Positions 16,982-64,000 of a DNA stretch of 64,000 bases are shown here, piece after piece (positions within the stretch are counted from its first letter, which is position 1; every line of letters begins with the position of its first letter). The translations under genes and the position numbers were made by a program. Source of the DNA: a virus. The DNA is taken from the IMG/VR virus record IMGVR_UViG_3300035152_000026, positions 22,002-86,001 of that record. The stretch is one strand, 5' to 3'. A model generated the notes under the pieces. That model saw only the letters and a list, made by a program, of their open reading frames with translations, was not told where the DNA came from and did not search any database.

Positions 16982-18082
16982 TTGTCCAAGTATCTCATTC
17001 CCGTGTTGAACTACACACAAGCAGCCGCCGCGGTGGCCGCTGCCCTTCGCGCGAGGCGAACCGCACTGCTGCTAGGTTCGCCAGGCGTTGGCAAAACGGC
17101 CCTCGTGCGTGATGCTGCGGCCGCCATTGGGTTGCCTTGCCACGATCTGATCGCGTCCAACATGGACCCGACAGACGTCGCGGGGCTGCCATACCGCGAT
17201 CTACAGTCGGGTCGGGTGCTGCGCGAGCTGTTTCCCGAGATTCGGGCCGTCGTGGACGCTGCGGGTGTCTTATTCATCGACGAGGCGACCGCGATGCCGA
17301 AATCGGTCGAGGGCCCGATGCTACGTGTTGCGATGGAACGCAACGCAGGCGGCACGCCGTTGCACCCGGGCAGCCCCGTAGTACTCGCGTGCAACCCGCC
17401 GGAACAGGCACCGGGCGGCATCGAGCTGTCGGCGGCATTCATCAACCGGATCGTGCTGCTTCGCTATCAGCCCTCATTCGCGGAAGTGCAGTCCTACTTC
17501 AACGGTGAGGCGGTTCACGCTTCTCCCGTAGTGCTCGACGAGGACGCCTTCCAGGCCGCATGCGTTGCGGAGTTCGCTGACTTCGCCGCGACGCTTTCCC
17601 ACGCTACTGATCTGCTCGTTTATGATCCGCCGCGTGCAAGCGTTGATCAGGGCGAGCCGTGGGCATCCCCTCGCGGCTGGGAGATCGGCCTCTCCTGCCT
17701 GGCAGCGCATGGCGGTAAAGAGGATGACGTTGGCTACGCGCTCCTGACAGGTGCCGTAGGACCGTCCGCTGCTGGCGCGTACCTGGCAATTCGCAAGCTC
17801 CGTCTGCACCTGCCATCCATCGATGAGATCGCGGCCAACCCAACCAAGGCACGGCTGCCCGAATCGCTCGATCAGCAGATCGCTGCCCTGGGTCTCCTGG
17901 CCCGAGTCGCGCAGACCGATGTCTGGGCCGCGTGGACCTACGCGGGCCGGCTGCGGAAAGAGATTGGAGCTGCCTGCGGACGGTTCCTAATGAACAAGGT
18001 GCCGCAGGCCTCTAAGTTCGCCACCGTCGGGCGCAAAGCCCAAATCCAACTGCTGGCAAGAGTGCAGCGTGGGGCAGCATGA
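16982..18082 (+). CDS. MoxR-like AAA+ ATPase
   Basis: Walker A GSPGVGKT, Walker B LFIDEA. TTG start after a GGCCCCGAGGGGC motif and ggagga SD. Confidence 0.8.
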   Translation: MSKYLIPVLNYTQAAAAVAAALRARRTALLLGSPGVGKTALVRDAAAAIGLPCHDLIASNMDPTDVAGLPYRDLQSGRVLRELFPEIRAVVDAAGVLFIDEATAMPKSVEGPMLRVAMERNAGGTPLHPGSPVVLACNPPEQAPGGIELSAAFINRIVLLRYQPSFAEVQSYFNGEAVHASPVVLDEDAFQAACVAEFADFAATLSHATDLLVYDPPRASVDQGEPWASPRGWEIGLSCLAAHGGKEDDVGYALLTGAVGPSAAGAYLAIRKLRLHLPSIDEIAANPTKARLPESLDQQIAALGLLARVAQTDVWAAWTYAGRLRKEIGAACGRFLMNKVPQASKFATVGRKAQIQLLARVQRGAA

Positions 18083-19311
18083 CATCAGCGACCAGACAGC
18101 TCATCCAGCGTGCCCGAGGGCTTTTGTTGGGCCTTGGTTGGCGACACCCATTCTTTGCTCTACCCGGTGCGAAGATCTACCTGCGTGTGTCCATCCACAT
18201 CCAGACTGCTTGTGCTGACGTACGTGGATGCGTGTACCTCAATCCGAGTTTCTGCGATCAGCTCTCGGACAAGCAGCTTACCTTCGTTCTGGCGCACGAG
18301 ATCATGCATCTGCTGCTGTTTCACTTTGGGCGGCGAATGAACCGCAAGCCGTTCCGCTGGAATCGTGCCGCGGATCGCGCAATCAACTTCGGTCTCGTGC
18401 AAATAGGGCTGGAAATGCCGCCCATGGGGTTACTTCCCACCGACCCGGCGCATAACGAGTACACAACAGAAGAACTCTACGAGGTCGAGGAAGAACAGCC
18501 AGGCGATGACGGTCAAGCCTCGCTGGGCAAGATGCCCGGAGCAACCGGTGGTTGTGGCGTGCTTCCACCTCAGGGTGGTGATGGCGATGGTGATGACGAT
18601 GGCGCCGAGGGTGAAGCACCAGAAGACGGCGCGGCGTTTCCCTCCACAGCTGAGTCAGCACGGACCTGGCGGCAGCTTGCTCACAGCGCTGAGCAGAACG
18701 CGCGCTCGGCAGGCGACTGCTCTGGAGATCTGCTTGCACGCGTGCTCCGCGTTCCACCATCCAAAGTGGCGTGGACTGCGGTGCTACGCAACGCATGTGC
18801 ACGTGCAATCGCTGAACGCGGCAACGACGACGTTAGTTGGCAGCGACGCAACCGGCGGTCGTTCGCGGGCGACTTCATTCTCCCAGGTGGAATCACGTCC
18901 AAGGCACTCGTCGCTGTGGCGGTAGACACCAGCGGTTCTGTCTCTGACGAAGACCTCGAACAAGCACTCAGCGAGGTGGAAGCAATCAGCCGTGCGACGG
19001 GTGTGGCCATATTTCTGGTCACACACGACGCGGAGGTGCACTTCGCCGACTGGATCCGTCCCGGCACACGACGAGCTGCTCTCGCCAAGACTCTGATCGG
19101 TCGCGGCGGAACGCTATACACGCCTGCGTACGCGGCCATCGAGAGCGCCAGCAAGAAGTTCGACTACGCGATCCATCTGACAGACGGTATGCCGTGTGAG
19201 ACGTGGCCTGAACGGCCGCGCAACTGCCGTAAGCTGACCGTCGCCTTGATCGGTTACGCGAGCAGAAAAGAAATTCCTGAGTTCGCTGATGTCATCGAGA
19301 TAGAAATCTGA
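18079..19311 (+). CDS. VWA-domain protein with N-terminal putative metallopeptidase domain (DUF2201-like)
   Basis: HEIMHLLLFH HExxH motif. VAVDTSGSVS MIDAS-like motif. ATGA-coupled to the MoxR ATPase. Confidence 0.75.
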   Translation: MTSATRQLIQRARGLLLGLGWRHPFFALPGAKIYLRVSIHIQTACADVRGCVYLNPSFCDQLSDKQLTFVLAHEIMHLLLFHFGRRMNRKPFRWNRAADRAINFGLVQIGLEMPPMGLLPTDPAHNEYTTEELYEVEEEQPGDDGQASLGKMPGATGGCGVLPPQGGDGDGDDDGAEGEAPEDGAAFPSTAESARTWRQLAHSAEQNARSAGDCSGDLLARVLRVPPSKVAWTAVLRNACARAIAERGNDDVSWQRRNRRSFAGDFILPGGITSKALVAVAVDTSGSVSDEDLEQALSEVEAISRATGVAIFLVTHDAEVHFADWIRPGTRRAALAKTLIGRGGTLYTPAYAAIESASKKFDYAIHLTDGMPCETWPERPRNCRKLTVALIGYASRKEIPEFADVIEIEI

Positions 19312-19314
19312 AAC

Positions 19315-19328
19315 GTCCCCGAGGGGAG
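19315..19328 (+). promoter_or_regulatory. GTCCCC-GA-GGGGAG start-proximal motif
   Basis: 7 nt upstream of ATG 19336. Confidence 0.5.
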
Positions 19329-19335
19329 AATAGAC

Positions 19336-20235
19336 ATGGGTTACAAAGCACGCACCAACAAGAAGGGCAACAAAGCAGGCAAAGCCAACAAGGCCAAGAA
19401 GCTACAACACGTAGAGCGCGCACCTTCGCGGGGCGCGCCACCGATCAAGATCCAGCCCGGGTATCTCGTGGTCTCGACGAGCAAAGTGACTGGCGGAATC
19501 AGTTACGACCGCGAGTACGGTGAGGAGCTGAGAATCAACGAGAACCAGGGTGTGCAGATCTCGCTGCATACAGTCAAGACCGTGGATCATGTCGAGATCG
19601 CGGCCGCGCTCGACGCGCTGAAAAAGAAGGCGGACTACGCTTTCAAAAAGCACTGTGCACACAGCGCATTCAACTGGTGGTACGCGGACGACGTCTCACT
19701 CAAAGCTCTGGAAAAGGAGATCGCCGAGCTACAACGCGAGGAACGTGTGCTCAATGCCGCAGCAAAGGCTGTAGGTTCGGCACGCCGCGCCCATATCGGG
19801 ATCATCGCCGGAAAGATCGATGTGGCGACACCGCTTGTCGCGGCTGAGATAGCGCGTACGATTTGTGACGTGCTTTCGGACGTGATTGCAGCGTTTCGTA
19901 CAGGGCAAGTCAAACGCGTCCTCGATGACGACGGCAAGGTGATTCAACAGAACGCGCTACACGCGCCGTTGCTACGTTGCAAGAACCTAGACCGCCTTGC
20001 AGTCGGGACCGCCGGAGAAGCCGTGAAGATCGCGTTGCAGCACGTGCCGCATGTCCGAGCTGAGATCATCGAAGCCATCGAGAAAGATGGTATGGAGCCT
20101 GCTGAAGCAGGTGCACGCGTCGATCTCGAACCGTTCGAGAACGCTATCACATGGTTTGAGGAGGGCAGTATCGGCACCGATCTGGTAAGCCCTGATGAGG
20201 TTGCCGCCGCGTTGCAAGATGCGATGAAAGGTTAG
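19336..20235 (+). CDS. hypothetical protein (Lys-rich N-terminus)
   Basis: GTCCCCGAGGGGAG motif 7 nt upstream. 299 aa. Confidence 0.6.
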   Translation: MGYKARTNKKGNKAGKANKAKKLQHVERAPSRGAPPIKIQPGYLVVSTSKVTGGISYDREYGEELRINENQGVQISLHTVKTVDHVEIAAALDALKKKADYAFKKHCAHSAFNWWYADDVSLKALEKEIAELQREERVLNAAAKAVGSARRAHIGIIAGKIDVATPLVAAEIARTICDVLSDVIAAFRTGQVKRVLDDDGKVIQQNALHAPLLRCKNLDRLAVGTAGEAVKIALQHVPHVRAEIIEAIEKDGMEPAEAGARVDLEPFENAITWFEEGSIGTDLVSPDEVAAALQDAMKG

Positions 20236-43734: not shown

Positions 43735-43830
43735 CAGATCTGAGCCCTTGAGGCGCCCAGAGCGAGATATGCGCTAAGTACTTGATAATATTAAGATATT
43801 ATAGGTAAATTTGCCAGTTGACGATAATAC
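43735..43830. promoter_or_regulatory. AT-rich island upstream of int (candidate attP / int promoter)
   Basis: tacttgataatattaagatattataggtaaatttgcc is strongly AT-rich against a ~62% GC background and contains imperfect inverted repeats. Confidence 0.35.
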
Positions 43831-44914
43831 CGGTTGTCGGGCAAGCTCTCAGATCATGTCCGAGGGAACCGACCTGATCCCGCGCCCACCCTGGCAAATT
43901 AGGCCCTCAGACGCTGCTCTGAGCCCCGATCTGCAAGACCGCCTAGAGGAGGCACTCCTGGCGTTCCGGCGCACCCTGGACTCCCCAGAGAGCGTACGCG
44001 GCTACCGTGACGACTGGCGCCGCTGGGTGGCTTGGCTCTCCGCCGAAGGGGTCCATCCACTGCACGCGCTGCCCCTGCACGTTCTGCGCTATCTCGTGAG
44101 CATGCAGGACGCTGGCAGGGCGAAGACGACGCGCTCACGCGCACTGGCCGTGATCCGTTCGACCTACGCCGCGCTGGTAGTTGCGTTCTCGGAGGTGCCT
44201 GGGGTGCTAGACGCAAACCCCGCGCGCGAGGTCCGAAACATCAAAGTGGATCACGAGCCGAAGACGCCCTGGCTCGCAGAAGACGAAATGCGCCGTCTCC
44301 TAATACGGCCGCCGTCAACCGCGCCGTGGGTAGAACGTCGCGATTGGGTTATCTGCGCCACGCTAGCAGGTACGGGTTGGCGTCGAGCGGAGATCGCACG
44401 CCTTCGTCGTGATGCGCTCCTCGACACCCCTGGTGGCTTCGCTGCGCAAGTGCACGCGAAAGGTGGCAAGGATGCCATCGTGCCACTTCCAGTTTGGTTG
44501 TCGCACGAGCTGGCGGAATGGTGCCAAGCCAATCGTATCGACGCAGGGCCAATATTCCCGCGACGCGAAGGCGCCGACGTGGCCGTTGGCCCCACGACAG
44601 TCAGGAACGCCGTGAAGCGATCAGCGGAACGCGCAGGGCTCGACCTGACACGCGCAACACCTCATGCGATTCGGCGTTCGTTCGCGACGATTACAGGTCA
44701 GCGTGGCGTCTCAATCGAAGATCGTCAGGCGGCGATGCTACATGCCTCAAAGGCGACAACAGAGCGCTACGACAAAGCGAGCAAACTGCCAGCACAAGCA
44801 CCCGGCGAAGTGCTTCGCGATCTTGTCGAGCCATCGAATGGCGAAGCAAACGCCGCCGCATCAAATGACACGCAGCCAAAAACTTGGCCGCCGCGTCGAG
44901 CTGATTACGAGTGA
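43811..44914 (+). CDS. int: tyrosine recombinase / phage integrase
   Basis: C-terminal catalytic motifs HAIRRSF and TTERYD (R...HxxR...Y). Preceded by an AT-rich region. Confidence 0.85.
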   Translation: MPVDDNTGCRASSQIMSEGTDLIPRPPWQIRPSDAALSPDLQDRLEEALLAFRRTLDSPESVRGYRDDWRRWVAWLSAEGVHPLHALPLHVLRYLVSMQDAGRAKTTRSRALAVIRSTYAALVVAFSEVPGVLDANPAREVRNIKVDHEPKTPWLAEDEMRRLLIRPPSTAPWVERRDWVICATLAGTGWRRAEIARLRRDALLDTPGGFAAQVHAKGGKDAIVPLPVWLSHELAEWCQANRIDAGPIFPRREGADVAVGPTTVRNAVKRSAERAGLDLTRATPHAIRRSFATITGQRGVSIEDRQAAMLHASKATTERYDKASKLPAQAPGEVLRDLVEPSNGEANAAASNDTQPKTWPPRRADYE

Positions 44915-60747: not shown

Positions 60748-61017
60748 ATGAACAACAACAAGCTGAGACCAACTGTCGAGGACGCTCACGCCGCTTCCAG
60801 GTGGGGATTTGCTAACACATTCACTGCTCGCTCGGTCGCCTTAGCGGTAGCGCAACGGCTCGGCCCCGATGACCGTGAAGGCGCTTGGTGGTACGCAAAG
60901 GTTCGGGTGTGTGCGCGAAATGCCCTTGAAGAGTGGCTACGTGAAAAAGTAATCGAGGCGGCCCCCCGATCAGGACAACCGACCGAATATCGATTCGTGA
61001 AGAAGGAGAGAACATGA
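60748..61017 (+). CDS. hypothetical protein
   Basis: SD aggagcag. Confidence 0.4.
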   Translation: MNNNKLRPTVEDAHAASRWGFANTFTARSVALAVAQRLGPDDREGAWWYAKVRVCARNALEEWLREKVIEAAPRSGQPTEYRFVKKERT

Positions 61018-61838
61018 GGGCAATCGTATTGGCTGAGATCAACAGTGACGGCACGCAAGGTGAGGTGCACACCTGCCGCGGCAGTGTGATCAAGATTGGA
61101 AAAATGAAACGCTCGGGGTTGAAGCTCAACCATCCTTCAGTCAGTCGGATGCACGCGGTGTTCGAGTGCGAGCCTGGAGGCATTGTCCACCTAGTCGATC
61201 TGGGTAGCGTGCAAGGTACGTTCATCAACGAGAAGCAGATCAACAAAGCAGCCGTCAAAGTCGGCGACACGGTTCGTTTTGGTGACGTGATGCTCGCGGT
61301 TCGTGAGATTACGGACGAGGATGACACAGATGAAGCTGAAGCTGAAGCTGAAGCTGAAGCTGAAGCTGAAGCTGAAGCTGAAGCTGGTACCGCAGATGCA
61401 GCCTCTACAGGGCTCAGCGATCTCGCGGCCCGTATTGATCGGCTCAAACGTATCCGCAACATATACAGTGCAGGAGCTGCGCAGAGCAGCGCCGAGGTAC
61501 CGAGCATAGGAAAGCTGGCCAGTACTGCCATCGTCCACAGCGTACTCGACGCCAACGCGCCAAAACAAATCGCTGACGTGATCAACGATGTCTGTGACAA
61601 CGTTGCCGAGCTGCGCAAAATCGCGTCCGCTGACCGTGTTACGCAAGCGCTGGACGGTCTCATCCAAGACTGGGCGCCTGTGTTGCAGGTCATCGGTAAG
61701 TACAGGGAGGCGAACGTCGAACGTACTGCGTTGTTCCGTGCCGGCTTGATCAAGAAGCTCAAGGACGAATTCGATCTGAGCGAGGCCAACGCAGTGGAGA
61801 TCGTTCAATCAGCGTCGGAAACGTCCAACCTGACTTGA
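61014..61838 (+). CDS. FHA-domain protein with (EA)n linker
   Basis: N-terminal FHA signature (GSVIKIGK...VSRMHAVFE...LVDLGSVQGTFIN). Then (EA)x13 encoded by a GAAGCT tandem repeat. Confidence 0.7.
   Translation: MRAIVLAEINSDGTQGEVHTCRGSVIKIGKMKRSGLKLNHPSVSRMHAVFECEPGGIVHLVDLGSVQGTFINEKQINKAAVKVGDTVRFGDVMLAVREITDEDDTDEAEAEAEAEAEAEAEAEAGTADAASTGLSDLAARIDRLKRIRNIYSAGAAQSSAEVPSIGKLASTAIVHSVLDANAPKQIADVINDVCDNVAELRKIASADRVTQALDGLIQDWAPVLQVIGKYREANVERTALFRAGLIKKLKDEFDLSEANAVEIVQSASETSNLT
61332..61386 (+). repeat. (GAAGCT)n hexanucleotide microsatellite, about 9 copies
   Basis: Encodes the (EA)n linker in the FHA-domain protein. Confidence 0.85.
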
Positions 61839-62210: not shown

Positions 62211-62226
62211 AAGCAAAGGAGCATGT

Positions 62227-63810
62227 ATGCCAGCACGCGTTTACAAGTATGGAGCCCGCCCTAGCCAAGATCCGAACTTGCTCAGGCAGATGAGGCTAGG
62301 CCGTCAGTACTACAACGCGCTCGTTGAAGCGGAGAACAAGCGGCGCCAAATCGGATGGGGCGGCGAATCTCCGCCACCACCACCGCACCGAGGTAGATGT
62401 CAGTGCGAGAAGTGCCAAGATGCATGGGCGAAGACGTCGCCTCCCCACGAGAAGTACGACTGCGACTGCGCTGAGTGCGAAAAGCACCGCGAGGCGCACC
62501 CGGCAGAGCACGACAACTGTAAGTGTGCGGCTTGCCGCGCGCACTGGAATGCAGTGTGGGCAGCTACCCGTGCTATACCGCTACTCGACGTTCGTCCATT
62601 ACGAACTACATGGGCGGCGAAAGGACTCTACTGGGGAACCTACAACGTGATCGAACAGGCCTTCTCGGCAGCCTGGCAACACACGTCTCTGCTCCGCCCG
62701 GTGAAATTCCGGTCGTGGCGCAAAGGAGACGTCGCGGCCGTCCAAATTCAACCCGGAAGAGATCCTCATCGGTACGTACAGACTCACAAAGCGCCAGACG
62801 CACGGACAGGAAGACGTACACGTAACGGACTTGGACGGCACACGGTAGAAATTAGGATCGGCAGCAATGGGGCTACACCCATTTTCTGCACCCCGATCCG
62901 CATAGAAAAGCACCGCGAGCTGTCTGGACAAATCACACATGTCCATGTGCGGCGGCGTTACAATGCCGATCAGCAGGTTTGGTCGGTCGCGTTCACTTGC
63001 AAGGATGCTGACCCAAGGACGGACGCGGCCGAGGAAGGCGTCGTTGCGGTAGACGTCAGCTGGCGCAAGATGCCTGACGGCTCCTGGCGATTGGGCTACG
63101 CGCGTGATGCGGCCGGTCACGTGAGTGAGCTACGCATGCCAGTCAGTTGGACGGCACGCGCTGACCGTGCGGAGAAGATCCACTCACACCGTGACAAGCG
63201 CCTCAACGAAGTACGGGCGTGCTGGCCTGTAGTCGGTAAGACGAAATCCTGCCAAAAGGCTGTACGAAGACTACGTAGTCTAGGAGTACTCACCGCGGAT
63301 CAAGACGCGTGGGTTGCACGCGAAATGCATCTCTGGCGGTATGAGTGCGGTTGCTGGCGGCGTAGCCGAACCGGACGTCGCGCAGCGCTGCGTGAATGGG
63401 TGCGTGAGCTACGCTGTCAATACGCGGCTGTCATCGTCAAGAATACAGGGCACAAGAAGATCAAGGAGGAACACGGGCTGCCTCAGAAGGCTCAACGGCA
63501 AGGACAACATGCGGCACCAGGAGAAACAGTGGAGGTGCTACGGGAAGTGTTTGGCGCCGATGGAATGCGGATCGTAGAAGCGAAGCACACGAGTGCGCGT
63601 TGCCCCGATTGTGGCACAATCACTCCCGTGAACGGACAACGCATGCTTCGTTGCGAGGGGTGTGGTACGCAACGAGACTGCGACGACATAAGCACCCGAA
63701 ACATGTGGGCCCTCTACCAAGCCGGCAAATGGAAAAAACCTACCGCTCGAAAAACGACCTCCAGGTTCGCGAAACGGCACAAGAAAAACGAGGTGCCCCC
63801 GGAATGCTAG
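62227..63810 (+). CDS. compact TnpB/Cas12-like RNA-guided nuclease homolog (527 aa)
   Basis: SD aaggag. RuvC-I-like VVAVDVS. Conserved VEAKHTSARCPDCG...CEGCG zinc finger followed by RDCDDISTRNM RuvC-III-like segment. Stop codon embedded in the first CRISPR-like repeat. Confidence 0.8.
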   Translation: MPARVYKYGARPSQDPNLLRQMRLGRQYYNALVEAENKRRQIGWGGESPPPPPHRGRCQCEKCQDAWAKTSPPHEKYDCDCAECEKHREAHPAEHDNCKCAACRAHWNAVWAATRAIPLLDVRPLRTTWAAKGLYWGTYNVIEQAFSAAWQHTSLLRPVKFRSWRKGDVAAVQIQPGRDPHRYVQTHKAPDARTGRRTRNGLGRHTVEIRIGSNGATPIFCTPIRIEKHRELSGQITHVHVRRRYNADQQVWSVAFTCKDADPRTDAAEEGVVAVDVSWRKMPDGSWRLGYARDAAGHVSELRMPVSWTARADRAEKIHSHRDKRLNEVRACWPVVGKTKSCQKAVRRLRSLGVLTADQDAWVAREMHLWRYECGCWRRSRTGRRAALREWVRELRCQYAAVIVKNTGHKKIKEEHGLPQKAQRQGQHAAPGETVEVLREVFGADGMRIVEAKHTSARCPDCGTITPVNGQRMLRCEGCGTQRDCDDISTRNMWALYQAGKWKKPTARKTTSRFAKRHKKNEVPPEC

Positions 63811-64000
63811 CTCGATGGCTACTCAATCGAGACAGTCGGGTGTGCGTTTCAAACCACTGGCGCAGCCGCCCCGGAATGCCAGCTCGATGACTACTCAATC
63901 GAGACAGCTCGCGTGCAATTGCCGCGGCCAAAGCTTTCTGCCACCCGAAATGCTAGCTCGATGGCTACTCAATCGAGACGCGTAGCGGAAGCCAGTTCGC
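63798..64000 (+). CRISPR. CRISPR-like array (at least 3 repeats of 36 nt; continues past window end)
   Basis: Repeats at 63798-63833, 63870-63905 and 63944-63979 (CCCGGAATGCTAGCTCGATGGCTACTCAATCGAGAC with 1-2 substitutions). Spacers 36 and 38 nt. Internal hairpin CTCGAT/ATCGAG. Confidence 0.6.

What the first reader, a model, noticed from the sequence alone, without database searches (positions are those of the whole stretch)
62227..64000. Phage-borne miniature TnpB/Cas12-like gene whose stop codon is embedded in the first repeat of a CRISPR-like array
A 527-aa ORF carries the hallmarks of TnpB/Cas12: a RuvC-I-like VVAVDVS, the conserved xxxHTSxxCxxCG segment, a CxxC...CxxC zinc finger, and a DxDxxxxxN(I/M) RuvC-III-like segment. 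It ends at 63810. Its TAG lies inside repeat 1 of at least three 36-nt direct repeats (63798, 63870, 63944) separated by unique 36- and 38-nt spacers. The array runs off the window. Each repeat ends with a 6-bp stem, 9-nt loop hairpin (CUCGAU...AUCGAG) followed by AC and then the spacer on the plus strand. This is the 5'-handle architecture of self-processing type V effectors such as Cas12a and Cas12j/CasPhi, and it implies co-directional transcription with the effector gene. There is no leader between the gene and the array, and no cas1, cas2 or cas4 within about 2 kb upstream. The protein is smaller than Cas12j. The ORF-end/repeat overlap resembles the TnpB-omegaRNA arrangement. This is a candidate undescribed hypercompact phage-encoded type V-like system, or a TnpB-to-CRISPR evolutionary intermediate.
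Basis: partly seen in the sequence, partly recalled or inferred. Interest (0 to 1): 0.95.

Follow-up and report, generated by a model that had tools for sequence, protein, structure and literature searches.

The report
Phage-borne miniature Cas12m CRISPR system
This is a real single-protein CRISPR system, probably carried by a phage, but it belongs to the known Cas12m (type V-M) family, as a small, probably non-cutting side branch whose gene runs straight into its repeat array.

Summary
A 527-aa ORF (62227-63810, +) ends with its TAG inside the first of three 36-nt repeats (63798, 63870, 63944). The spacers are unique, and the array runs off the window.

- A profile of 35 homologs matches solved Cas12m structures over the full length (E 4.7e-44 and 3e-24).
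- The AlphaFold model (pLDDT 87) matches Cas12m2 and GoCas12m best.
- PADLOC calls it Cas12u1 (V-U1, now V-M).
- It aligns end to end with the characterised MsCas12m (26% identity), whose repeat is visibly related.

What is new is the clade.
- Members are 472-531 aa and were found only in metagenomic and viral contigs. One lies next to terminase, portal and head genes.
- An invariant Lys replaces the RuvC-II Glu or Asp, giving a D-K-D triad that is not among the published Cas12m triads.
- The REC insertion is shortened.
- Repeat 1 overlaps the ORF end in all nine distinct clade loci whose DNA I could examine.

Relatives carry arrays of up to 32 repeats. Covariation across 41 repeat types supports a hairpin plus pseudoknot handle. 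I found no cas1, cas2 or cas4 and no spacer targets.

The most likely function is crRNA-guided DNA binding and silencing without cleavage. Moderate interest; new variant of a known kind.

The parts
62217..62221 (+). Ribosome-binding site (AGGAG) 5 nt upstream of the ATG
   Evidence: Read directly from the sequence.
62227..63810 (+). cas12m-like effector gene, 527 aa, with the domain order WED-REC-RuvC-TNB
   Evidence: PADLOC Cas12u1 E 1.1e-35. Family profile against PDB: Cas12m 23vw_A E 4.7e-44, Cas12m2 E 3e-24. AF2 model pLDDT 87.3. Foldseek top hits are Cas12m2 8hhl (TM 0.64) and GoCas12m 8pm4. 26% identity over the full length to MsCas12m.
62404..62544 (+). Cys/His-rich REC segment (residues 60-106). 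It holds three CxCxxC motifs; most clade members have one. It sits where canonical Cas12m has its long coiled-coil REC2 ('Roof') insertion. Possibly binds zinc.
   Evidence: C100, C103 and H106 are nearly invariant. This is the lower-confidence part of the model, pLDDT 57-71. The distance from N37 to G133 has a median of 60 aa in the clade, about 107 in the D-E-D relatives and 81 in MsCas12m.
63052..63054 (+). RuvC-I Asp (D276)
   Evidence: Invariant in 35 homologs. Aligns with D274 of MsCas12m (PMC11013384).
63439..63441 (+). RuvC-II position occupied by Lys (K405) instead of Glu or Asp
   Evidence: K is invariant in 35 of 35 clade proteins. It aligns with the E of 23vw_A and MsCas12m and with the D of Cas12m2. 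All but two of the more distant relatives compared keep E there (one has Thr, one is truncated).
63601..63663 (+). TNB zinc ribbon (C459, C462, C476, C479)
   Evidence: Pfam PF07282 Cas12f1-like_TNB, 26.6 bits. The four cysteines are invariant.
63682..63684 (+). RuvC-III Asp (D486) in the motif DxDxxSTRN
   Evidence: Invariant. Aligns with the DQD motif of Cas12m proteins.
63798..63833 (+). CRISPR repeat 1. It encodes the last four residues (PPEC) and contains the TAG stop at 63808-63810.
   Evidence: The same overlap (3-28 nt) occurs in all nine distinct clade loci examined.
63834..63869 (+). Spacer 1 (36 nt)
   Evidence: Unique. No match in the window, in the loci fetched up to that point (the later L088 is L003's own contig), in GenBank phages or in IMG/VR.
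63870..63905 (+). CRISPR repeat 2 (2 mismatches; TAG becomes CAG)
63906..63943 (+). Spacer 2 (38 nt)
   Evidence: Unique, no target found.
63944..63979 (+). CRISPR repeat 3 (1 mismatch)
63980..64000 (+). Start of spacer 3, cut by the window end

Best explanation
The locus is a minimal type V-M-like CRISPR system. It consists of one miniature Cas12m-family effector and a CRISPR array fused to the 3' end of its gene, carried by a probable phage.

Proposed mechanism:
1. Inferred: gene and array are transcribed as one RNA. There is no intergenic space, and the stop codon lies inside repeat 1.
2. Inferred from characterised Cas12m proteins: the effector cuts the pre-crRNA within the repeats without a tracrRNA.
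3. Shown by covariation: the repeat-derived handle of about 33 nt folds into a 6-bp hairpin whose loop pairs with an upstream GCN triplet, forming a pseudoknot. The 5' part of each 35-38-nt spacer follows as the guide.
4. Inferred: the RNP binds PAM-flanked double-stranded DNA but does not cut it. The RuvC-II carboxylate is an invariant Lys (D-K-D), and even D-E-D Cas12m proteins do not cleave. The result would be blocked transcription or replication of the target, probably a rival phage or plasmid, or possibly host genes.
5. New spacers must come from recombination or from a host adaptation module acting in trans, because the locus has no cas1 or cas2.
For: Family identity:
- PADLOC Cas12u1 E 1.1e-35.
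- Profile of 35 homologs against PDB: Cas12m 23vw_A E 4.7e-44 over profile positions 8-465 of 491, Cas12m2 E 3e-24, UnCas12m4a E 1e-15, TnpB no better than E 3e-10.
- Foldseek top four hits are all Cas12m (E 3e-21 to 2.5e-17, TM 0.61-0.64), ahead of TnpB at E 2e-12.
- The only plasmid-database hit is MsCas12m on pMESIL02, with 26% identity end to end.

Array is genuine:
- A 62%-identical relative (L027) has almost the same repeat (one nucleotide different), in 13 units.
- P0014 phages have 21 and 30 units. Nearly every relative with downstream sequence has an adjacent co-oriented array.

RNA structure (41 distinct repeats, MsCas12m included):
- 85.5% of cells are paired, against 57% in shuffles and about 40% when partners are slid.
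- All 10 pairs show compensatory changes. The hairpin is 93.9% paired.
- This matches the pseudoknot handle of the GoCas12m crRNA (PMC11013384).

No cleavage expected:
- K405 is invariant.
- Cas12m proteins with D-E-D, H-D-D and N-D-D triads all bind and do not cut (PMC11013384, PMC10442227).

Phage context:
- 18 IMG/VR viral contigs carry relatives, and none was found in 185,579 species genomes.
- In L009 the clade gene and array sit about 420 bp upstream of the terminase large subunit, portal and head protease genes.
- The window shares three genes with a viral contig.

No adaptation genes were detected in the window.
Against: - No protospacer was found for any spacer, so the target class and the PAM are unknown.
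- Nuclease inactivity is inferred from one residue and from relatives. It was not tested.
- The window itself has no virion genes, so its phage origin is indirect.
- Only three repeats are visible here, and repeat 2 weakens the pseudoknot.
- Co-transcription is inferred. The promoter scan is a crude sigma-70 consensus.
- The clade largely lacks the REC2 coiled coil that Cas12m2 uses to hold the PAM-distal duplex (PMC10442227). Binding strength and usable guide length may therefore differ from characterised Cas12m.
Confidence: 0.72

Rival explanations
1. It is an active RNA-guided DNA nuclease, like Cas12j or Cas12f, that cuts rival phage or host DNA. Another acidic residue (for example E433 of the invariant APGE motif) would stand in for the missing RuvC-II glutamate.
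For: D276 and D486 are invariant, and E433 is nearly invariant. The TNB zinc ribbon is intact. Published work notes that catalytic-site rearrangements occur in TnpB and Cas12 (PMC10691335).
Against: E433 aligns with a Glu that is also present in the D-E-D relatives, so it is not a clade-specific replacement. A Lys at the metal-binding position is invariant. No characterised Cas12m cuts dsDNA, not even the D-E-D forms. Converting H-D-D to D-E-D did not restore cutting (PMC11013384, PMC10442227).
Confidence: 0.1
2. It works as a phage-encoded RNA-guided transcription regulator of host or own-phage genes, like the TldR repressors, rather than as interference against rival elements. Under this reading the arrays are fixed sets of regulatory guides.
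For: The effector is nuclease-dead by prediction. There are no adaptation genes. No spacer matches any phage or plasmid sequence searched. Some relatives carry very short 11-17-nt spacers (L007). Phages are known to use TldR in this way (PMC10705468).
Against: Arrays differ between phages that have an identical effector: 21 against 30 units, with the gene-proximal spacer replaced. That looks like turnover rather than a fixed regulon. Spacers are not conserved between relatives. No match to the window itself within 3 mismatches. The host genome is unknown, so host targeting could not be tested.
Confidence: 0.15
3. It is an IS605-family TnpB with an omega-RNA, and the 'spacers' are transposon-end sequence.
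For: The ORF end overlaps the RNA element, as in tnpB with its omega-RNA. PHROGs gives weak 'transposase' hits (E 3.9e-06). Pfam sees only the TNB domain.
Against: NCBIfam guided_TnpB scores 12.3 bits against a cutoff of 100. Relatives have up to 32 repeat-spacer units with unique spacers. The best structural and profile matches are Cas12m, with TnpB far behind. The locus is single-copy in the window.
Confidence: 0.02

Closest known systems
Cas12m / type V-M CRISPR-Cas (formerly V-U1): MsCas12m, GoCas12m, MmCas12m2, PmCas12m
   Same: Homologous effector by profile, fold and pairwise alignment. Same domain order and a CCCC TNB zinc ribbon. Effector-only locus with a co-oriented array of 36-nt repeats and no tracrRNA-like anti-repeat. 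The repeat is homologous to the MsCas12m repeat and has a hairpin plus pseudoknot handle. The RuvC triad is altered. Carried on mobile elements.
   Different: Only 18-26% identity to characterised members. The D-K-D triad is not among the published ones (HEK/HQK, HDD, DED/NED, DND; PMC10442227). Size is 472-531 aa against about 540-660. The REC2 'Roof' coiled coil is cut down and replaced by a short Cys/His-rich segment, and the RuvC helical insertion is about 25 aa shorter. Repeat 1 overlaps the ORF, whereas the MsCas12m array starts about 150 nt after the stop. Found only in viral and metagenomic contigs.
MvCas12m, reported in 2026 as the first phage-encoded Cas12m (bioRxiv 10.64898/2026.09.14.751636)
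   Same: A phage-borne Cas12m with an adjacent array, no adaptation genes and no identified targets.
   Different: MvCas12m is 610 aa with an intact D-E-D triad. The protein here is 527 aa with D-K-D and an ORF-array overlap.
TnpB with omega-RNA (IS200/IS605 OMEGA systems)
   Same: The guide-RNA scaffold begins inside the 3' end of the protein gene. The REC lobe is minimal. The scaffold has a pseudoknot core. TnpB is known to process its own mRNA into omega-RNA (PMC10278001).
   Different: There are multiple repeat-spacer units rather than one scaffold and guide. No transposon ends or TnpA were found. The TnpB model scores far below its cutoff. RuvC is probably inactive.
Cas12j (CasPhi) of huge phages
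   Same: Phage-encoded, effector-only and tracrRNA-free. The repeat ends in a hairpin plus GAC directly before the spacer (the CasPhi repeat is recalled from memory).
   Different: Cas12j is only a distant structural match (Foldseek rank 25, TM 0.37; profile E 0.009 limited to the TNB domain). Cas12j is 700-800 aa and cuts DNA.
TldR, TnpB-like nuclease-dead repressors used by prophages (PMC10705468)
   Same: A phage-borne, nuclease-dead, RNA-guided DNA binder descended from TnpB. A possible functional analogue.
   Different: TldR uses a single omega-like guide aimed at a conserved host promoter. It has no CRISPR array and belongs to a different branch of the family.

Membership tests
Cas12m / type V-M | Effector homologous to Cas12m over its full length | tested here: met
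   Profile against PDB: Cas12m 23vw_A E 4.7e-44, Cas12m2 E 3e-24. PADLOC Cas12u1 E 1.1e-35. BLASTP against MsCas12m E 5e-24, 26% identity, residues 4-493.
Cas12m / type V-M | Cas12m fold: WED, REC, RuvC with a helical insertion, and a TNB zinc ribbon | tested here: met
   AF2 model pLDDT 87.3, pTM 0.77. The Foldseek top four hits are all Cas12m, TM 0.61-0.64. The four zinc-ribbon cysteines are invariant.
Cas12m / type V-M | Long arginine-rich coiled-coil REC2 insertion ('Roof' or 'sickle') | tested here: not met
   The segment between N37 and G133 has a median of 60 aa in the clade, against about 107 in D-E-D relatives. The HMMER alignment to 23vw_A shows a long insertion in the PDB chain that is absent here. 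A Cys/His-rich segment takes its place.
Cas12m / type V-M | Adjacent co-oriented CRISPR array, no tracrRNA, no adaptation genes | tested here: met
   Three repeats in the window and 4-30 in clade relatives. The only inverted match to the repeat is a 15-nt chance-like match that is half spacer. None of the other 98 ORFs hits a PADLOC model.
Cas12m / type V-M | Repeat-derived 5' handle with a hairpin and pseudoknot | tested here: met
   Covariation over 41 repeat types, including MsCas12m. The hairpin is 93.9% paired. The three core pseudoknot pairs are each 80-90% paired, with compensatory changes. 0 of 500 shuffles reach the observed score.
Cas12m / type V-M | One of the described RuvC triads (HEK/HQK, HDD, DED/NED, DND) | tested here: not met
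   The triad here is D276-K405-D486, and K is invariant in the clade. The list of described triads is from PMC10442227.
Cas12m / type V-M | PAM-dependent dsDNA binding without cleavage; self-processing of pre-crRNA | not testable with these tools
   Needs biochemistry or in vivo assays.
TnpB / IS200-IS605 OMEGA | Passes the TnpB family model; single omega-RNA with one guide; transposon ends; often TnpA | tested here: not met
   NF040570 scores 12.3 bits against a cutoff of 100. Relatives have multi-unit arrays. The repeat occurs only in the array. No Y1 transposase appears among the 25 listed of 29 Pfam families for the window ORFs.
Cas12j (V-J) | Homology to CasPhi over its full length | tested here: not met
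   Profile E 0.009, TNB region only. Foldseek TM 0.37, rank 25.
Cas12f (V-F) | Homology to Cas12f/Cas14 over its full length; tracrRNA | tested here: not met
   Solved Cas12f chains match only in the TNB region (E about 0.04). Foldseek TM 0.39-0.43. PADLOC model PDLC01692, labelled Cas12f, does score E 2e-33. Its length and matched coordinates are almost identical to the Cas12u1 model, so I infer it represents the same V-U1 family.

The most novel reading that the evidence does not exclude
This clade could be a phage-specific, minimal natural CRISPRi module in which effector mRNA and guide precursor are one molecule.
- Processing within repeat 1 would cut the cas12m mRNA at or before its own stop codon. 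In PmCas12m, cleavage falls 2-3 nt into the repeat, which here would be about 8-10 nt upstream of the TAG.
- That would couple guide production to negative autoregulation of the effector, as TnpB does with its own mRNA.
- With the REC2 coiled coil lost, the enzyme may work with very short guides. One relative carries only 11-17-nt spacers.
- Together these features would make it a TnpB-like architecture surviving inside a CRISPR system.
Probability: 0.2. Interest if true: 0.65.

Novelty: new variant of a known kind. Interest (0 to 1): 0.42.

Why it matters
For classification it matters little: it extends type V-M and does not add a new type.

It matters somewhat more in three other ways.
1. 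It shows that a whole miniature, Lys-substituted Cas12m lineage lives on phages. About 15 clusters at 50% identity sit inside a superfamily of about 1,600 clusters with E ≤ 1e-30 to the clade profile, of which only the top 150 were inspected. A 2026 preprint still describes a single phage Cas12m as the first.
2. At 472-531 aa with a crRNA of about 50 nt and no tracrRNA, these would be among the smallest natural candidates for nuclease-free DNA targeting (CRISPRi, base and epigenome editors).
3. The fusion of gene and array offers a testable link between the way TnpB makes its omega-RNA and the way CRISPR arrays are expressed.

Tried and rejected
Searches that found nothing:
- Single-protein search of IMG/VR. 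The alignment-based search was needed.
- tblastn against GenBank phages.
- GTDB species genomes: no relative, with patterns specific to this clade and its near relatives.
- The exact protein occurs only on a 2.5-kb Logan contig that breaks in repeat 1, so the array could not be extended.
- The repeat core is not in IMG/VR.
- Rfam: no family at E ≤ 1.
- Sigma-70 promoter scan of 61.8-64 kb: none. The two terminator-like sites are on the minus strand and at chance level.

Spacer targets:
- 347 unique spacers were compared with the window and all fetched loci. Only the same arrays in duplicate contigs matched.
- 23 spacers (the window's three, the third partial, plus those of three close relatives) against GenBank phages: no match at E ≤ 1.
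- Window spacers 1 and 2, plus two P0014 spacers, against IMG/VR as exact 22-mers: none, or only the phage's own array.
- No self-target in the window within 3 mismatches.
- The full spacer set was not run against the plasmid database.

Ideas considered and dropped:
- Single-sequence folding of the repeats is not better than shuffles, so I relied on covariation instead.
- Strand choice from G-U pairs is only weakly informative: 349 cells paired on the plus strand against 334 on the minus.
- E433 as a substitute catalytic Glu: rejected, because it aligns with a Glu also present in the D-E-D relatives.
- The 15-nt inverted match 62914-62928 / 63899-63913 as an anti-repeat: rejected, because half of it is spacer 2 and it lies inside the coding region.
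Full report
**1. The observation**

The region reads as the first-stage reader described it.
- An ORF starts at ATG 62227, five bases after an AGGAG, and ends at TAG 63808-63810, giving 527 aa.
- It contains VVAVDVS (D276), AKHTSARCPDCG, a CxxC...CxxC ribbon (C459, C462, C476, C479) and RDCDDISTRNM (D484, D486).
- Three 36-nt direct repeats lie at 63798, 63870 and 63944, with 0, 2 and 1 mismatches to the consensus. They are separated by unique 36- and 38-nt spacers, and a third spacer is cut by the window end.
- The 24-nt repeat core occurs three times in the window against zero in 100 shuffles.
- The stop codon is positions 11-13 of repeat 1, so the repeat encodes the last residues (PPEC*).
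- Repeats 1 and 3 fold into the 6-bp stem and 9-nt loop hairpin followed by AC. The folding energy alone is no better than shuffles.

**2. What the protein is**

General libraries see little.
- Pfam finds only the TNB zinc ribbon, at 26.6 bits.
- The NCBIfam TnpB model scores 12.3 bits against a cutoff of 100.
- PADLOC matches its Cas12u1 model at E 1.1e-35 over residues 131-495.

V-U1 is the former name of type V-M, whose effector is Cas12m (PMC11013384, PMC10442227).

A database search gave 36 clear homologs (35-76% identity). All are metagenomic and none carries an informative name. Three lines of evidence tie the family to Cas12m.
- A profile of 35 of these proteins matches solved Cas12m chains over almost its whole length: 23vw_A 'DNA-binding protein Cas12m' E 4.7e-44, Cas12m2 (8hio, 8hhl) E 3e-24 and UnCas12m4a E 1e-15. 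The best TnpB or TnpB-like chains reach only E 3e-10, and Cas12f and Cas12j match only in the TNB domain.
- The AlphaFold2 model is confident (pLDDT 87.3, pTM 0.77). Its four best Foldseek matches in the PDB are all Cas12m: Cas12m2 at E 3e-21 and TM 0.64, and GoCas12m 8pm4 at E 2.5e-17. TnpB follows at E 2e-12, and Cas12j is rank 25 with TM 0.37.
- The only tblastn hit in 72,556 plasmids is the gene for MsCas12m (WP_013159911, 536 aa) on Allomeiothermus silvanus pMESIL02. This protein has been characterised biochemically (PMC11013384). It aligns with the window protein from residue 4 to 493 at 26% identity.

**3. The repeats are Cas12m repeats**
- The MsCas12m repeat is GTAGCAATGCCTAGCTCAGGGGCTTGAAGACTGAGAC.
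- The window repeat is CCCGGAATGCTAGCTCGATGGCTACTCAATCGAGAC. The two are visibly related.
- I collected consensus repeats from 41 loci encoding relatives and aligned them almost without gaps.
- A structure with the 6-bp hairpin plus a pseudoknot, between the first loop bases and an upstream GCN triplet, is 85.5% paired. Shuffles give 57% and slid partners about 40%.
- All ten pairs show compensatory changes, and no shuffle out of 500 reaches the observed covariation score. The hairpin is 93.9% paired. The three core pseudoknot pairs are each 80-90% paired. RNAalifold independently predicts the hairpin.
- GoCas12m crRNA is reported to form a triplex-pseudoknot core from about 30 nt of repeat (PMC11013384).
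- Window repeat 2 carries two substitutions that weaken the pseudoknot.

**4. The array is real and extends in relatives**

The window's own contig could not be extended. The identical protein is on record only on a 2.5-kb contig that breaks in repeat 1. The relatives are informative.
- L027 (62% identity) has almost the same repeat as the window (one nucleotide different), in 13 units that run to the contig end.
- Phages encoding P0014 have 21 and 30 units.
- Nearly every relative with downstream sequence has a co-oriented array, of up to 32 units.
- Two contigs with the identical P0014 effector differ in repeat number and in the gene-proximal spacer, so the arrays turn over.

**5. What is distinctive about this clade**

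The RuvC triad is different.
- In all 35 proteins the RuvC-II position is Lys (K405, in the motif vIKd). It aligns with the Glu of 23vw_A and MsCas12m and with the Asp of Cas12m2.
- RuvC-I (D276) and RuvC-III (D486) are kept, so the triad is D-K-D.
- The published Cas12m clades have HEK/HQK, HDD, DED/NED and DED/DND/NED (PMC10442227).
- All but two of the more distant relatives I collected keep D-E-D; one has Thr and one is truncated. The Lys therefore looks like a derived state.

The clade is also smaller and closely fused to its array.
- Members are 472-531 aa.
- The REC insertion between N37 and G133 has a median of 60 aa, against about 107 in the D-E-D relatives and 81 in MsCas12m.
- The RuvC helical insertion is about 25 aa shorter.
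- In place of the coiled-coil 'Roof' there is a short segment with nearly invariant C100, C103 and H106. This motif is triplicated in the window protein.
- Repeat 1 overlaps the ORF end by 3-28 nt in all nine distinct clade loci examined. In D-E-D relatives the array usually starts 4-42 nt after the stop, and sometimes 150-200 nt, as in MsCas12m.
- Recurrent C-terminal tails such as DNASPAA are simply translated repeat.
- An exhaustive profile search puts this clade at about 15 clusters (50% identity). They sit within a superfamily of about 1,600 clusters at E ≤ 1e-30, of which only the top 150 were inspected.

**6. Context**
- None of the other 98 ORFs of the window hits any PADLOC defence model, so no cas1, cas2 or cas4 was detected.
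- The window has no recognisable virion, plasmid replication or conjugation genes. It does have an integrase, an AAA ATPase with a DUF2201 protein, glycosyltransferases, thioredoxin and nucleotide-metabolism genes, nearly all on one strand.
- Phage origin is therefore indirect for the window itself. It shares three genes at 31-40% identity with an 81.5-kb IMG/VR contig that carries a clade member.
- It is direct for the clade. Eighteen IMG/VR viral contigs (13-245 kb) encode relatives, and none was found in 185,579 species genomes.
- In L009 the gene and its 4-repeat array lie about 420 bp upstream of the terminase large subunit (E 9e-112), portal (E 9e-123) and head protease genes.
- The literature already says that V-M is enriched on plasmids and present in some prophages (PMC11656645). 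V-U1-like effectors occur in landfill viromes (PMC12607003). A 2026 preprint reports a 610-aa D-E-D 'first phage Cas12m' (10.64898/2026.09.14.751636).

**7. How it most likely works**

Shown:
- Family membership.
- The array architecture.
- The conserved handle structure.
- The Lys at RuvC-II.
- The absence of detectable adaptation genes.

Inferred:
- Gene and array are transcribed together, because there is no space for a leader and no promoter-like site was found (weak evidence).
- The effector processes the pre-crRNA itself, within the repeats. This is Mg-dependent and RuvC-independent in MsCas12m. In PmCas12m the cut is 2-3 nt into the repeat, and the guide is about 17 nt (PMC11013384; 10.64898/2026.03.26.714355).
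- The RNP binds PAM-flanked dsDNA and silences it without cutting, as all tested Cas12m proteins do.

Targets are unknown. No protospacer was found in the window, in the loci fetched, in GenBank phages or in IMG/VR.

**8. Rivals**
- An active nuclease is unlikely, given the invariant Lys and the behaviour of the family.
- A TldR-like regulator of host genes cannot be excluded, because the host is unknown. Array turnover argues against a fixed regulon.
- An IS605 TnpB with an omega-RNA is refuted by the multi-unit arrays and the model scores.

**9. Verdict**

The finding is real and correctly described. Its claim of an undescribed system, or of an evolutionary intermediate, is overstated. It is a divergent, miniature, phage-associated variant of type V-M, with a new RuvC triad (D-K-D) and a gene-array fusion. 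The fusion raises a testable idea: repeat-1 processing may truncate the effector's own mRNA, much as TnpB does (PMC10278001). Interest is moderate.

Noticed in passing
L003 11533-13000 vs L004 3843-5963: Two contigs encode the identical effector (P0014) but carry arrays of 21 and 30 repeats. The gene-proximal spacer differs, and one spacer is duplicated in tandem. The arrays therefore turn over, although no cas1 or cas2 appears in the Pfam annotations of the genes called on these contigs.
   Followed up: partly
L007 6916-7185; also L004, L018, L027 and L069 arrays: Many arrays contain very short 'spacers'. In L007 all five are 11-17 nt, and elsewhere isolated ones of 5-25 nt occur, mostly toward the distal end. 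They could be decay products, or usable short guides for an effector that lacks the REC2 domain.
   Followed up: no
A1 C-termini; L033 and L038 repeats: At least 10 of the 35 clade proteins end in NASPAA-like tails (DNASPAA, RNASSAA, DNASATD). These tails are simply the translation of repeat 1 (GAC AAT GCC AGC CCA GCG GCC TAG). The model's C-terminal 19 residues have pLDDT below 50.
   Followed up: partly
window 62404-62544 (residues 60-106): The CxCxxC...H motif is triplicated in the REC region of the window protein and of its 76%-identical relative P0002. Most clade members have one copy. It may be an extra zinc knuckle. This part of the model has lower confidence.
   Followed up: partly
window 61316-61405: A tandem (GAAGCT)n repeat encodes a run of alternating Glu-Ala inside the FHA-domain ORF 61014-61838, just upstream of the cas12m gene. 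A homologous FHA gene lies downstream of the array in L002.
   Followed up: no
window 16982-20235: A block of an AAA ATPase, a DUF2201 metallopeptidase/VWA-like protein (PHROGs labels this family 'HNH endonuclease') and a third gene is shared at 31-40% identity with viral contig IMGVR_UViG_3300005253_000051. That contig also carries a clade Cas12m.
   Followed up: partly
window 43811-44914; L007 4503-5297; L033 5672-7375: Tyrosine integrase genes occur in the window (18 kb upstream) and close to the cas12m gene in two relatives, directly upstream in L007. This suggests temperate phages or integrative elements.
   Followed up: no
L079 (relative, 24% identity): One D-E-D-type relative has Thr at the RuvC-II position (VVLTD), and P0045 has an altered RuvC-III motif. 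The catalytic site seems to have been lost several times independently in the viral Cas12m-like superfamily.
   Followed up: no
PADLOC models PDLC00930 and PDLC01692: Two PADLOC models, labelled Cas12u1 and Cas12f, have nearly the same length (533 and 532) and match the same residues with similar scores. Solved Cas12f proteins match only the TNB domain. The 'Cas12f' label on PDLC01692 probably covers V-U1/V-M sequences.
   Followed up: no
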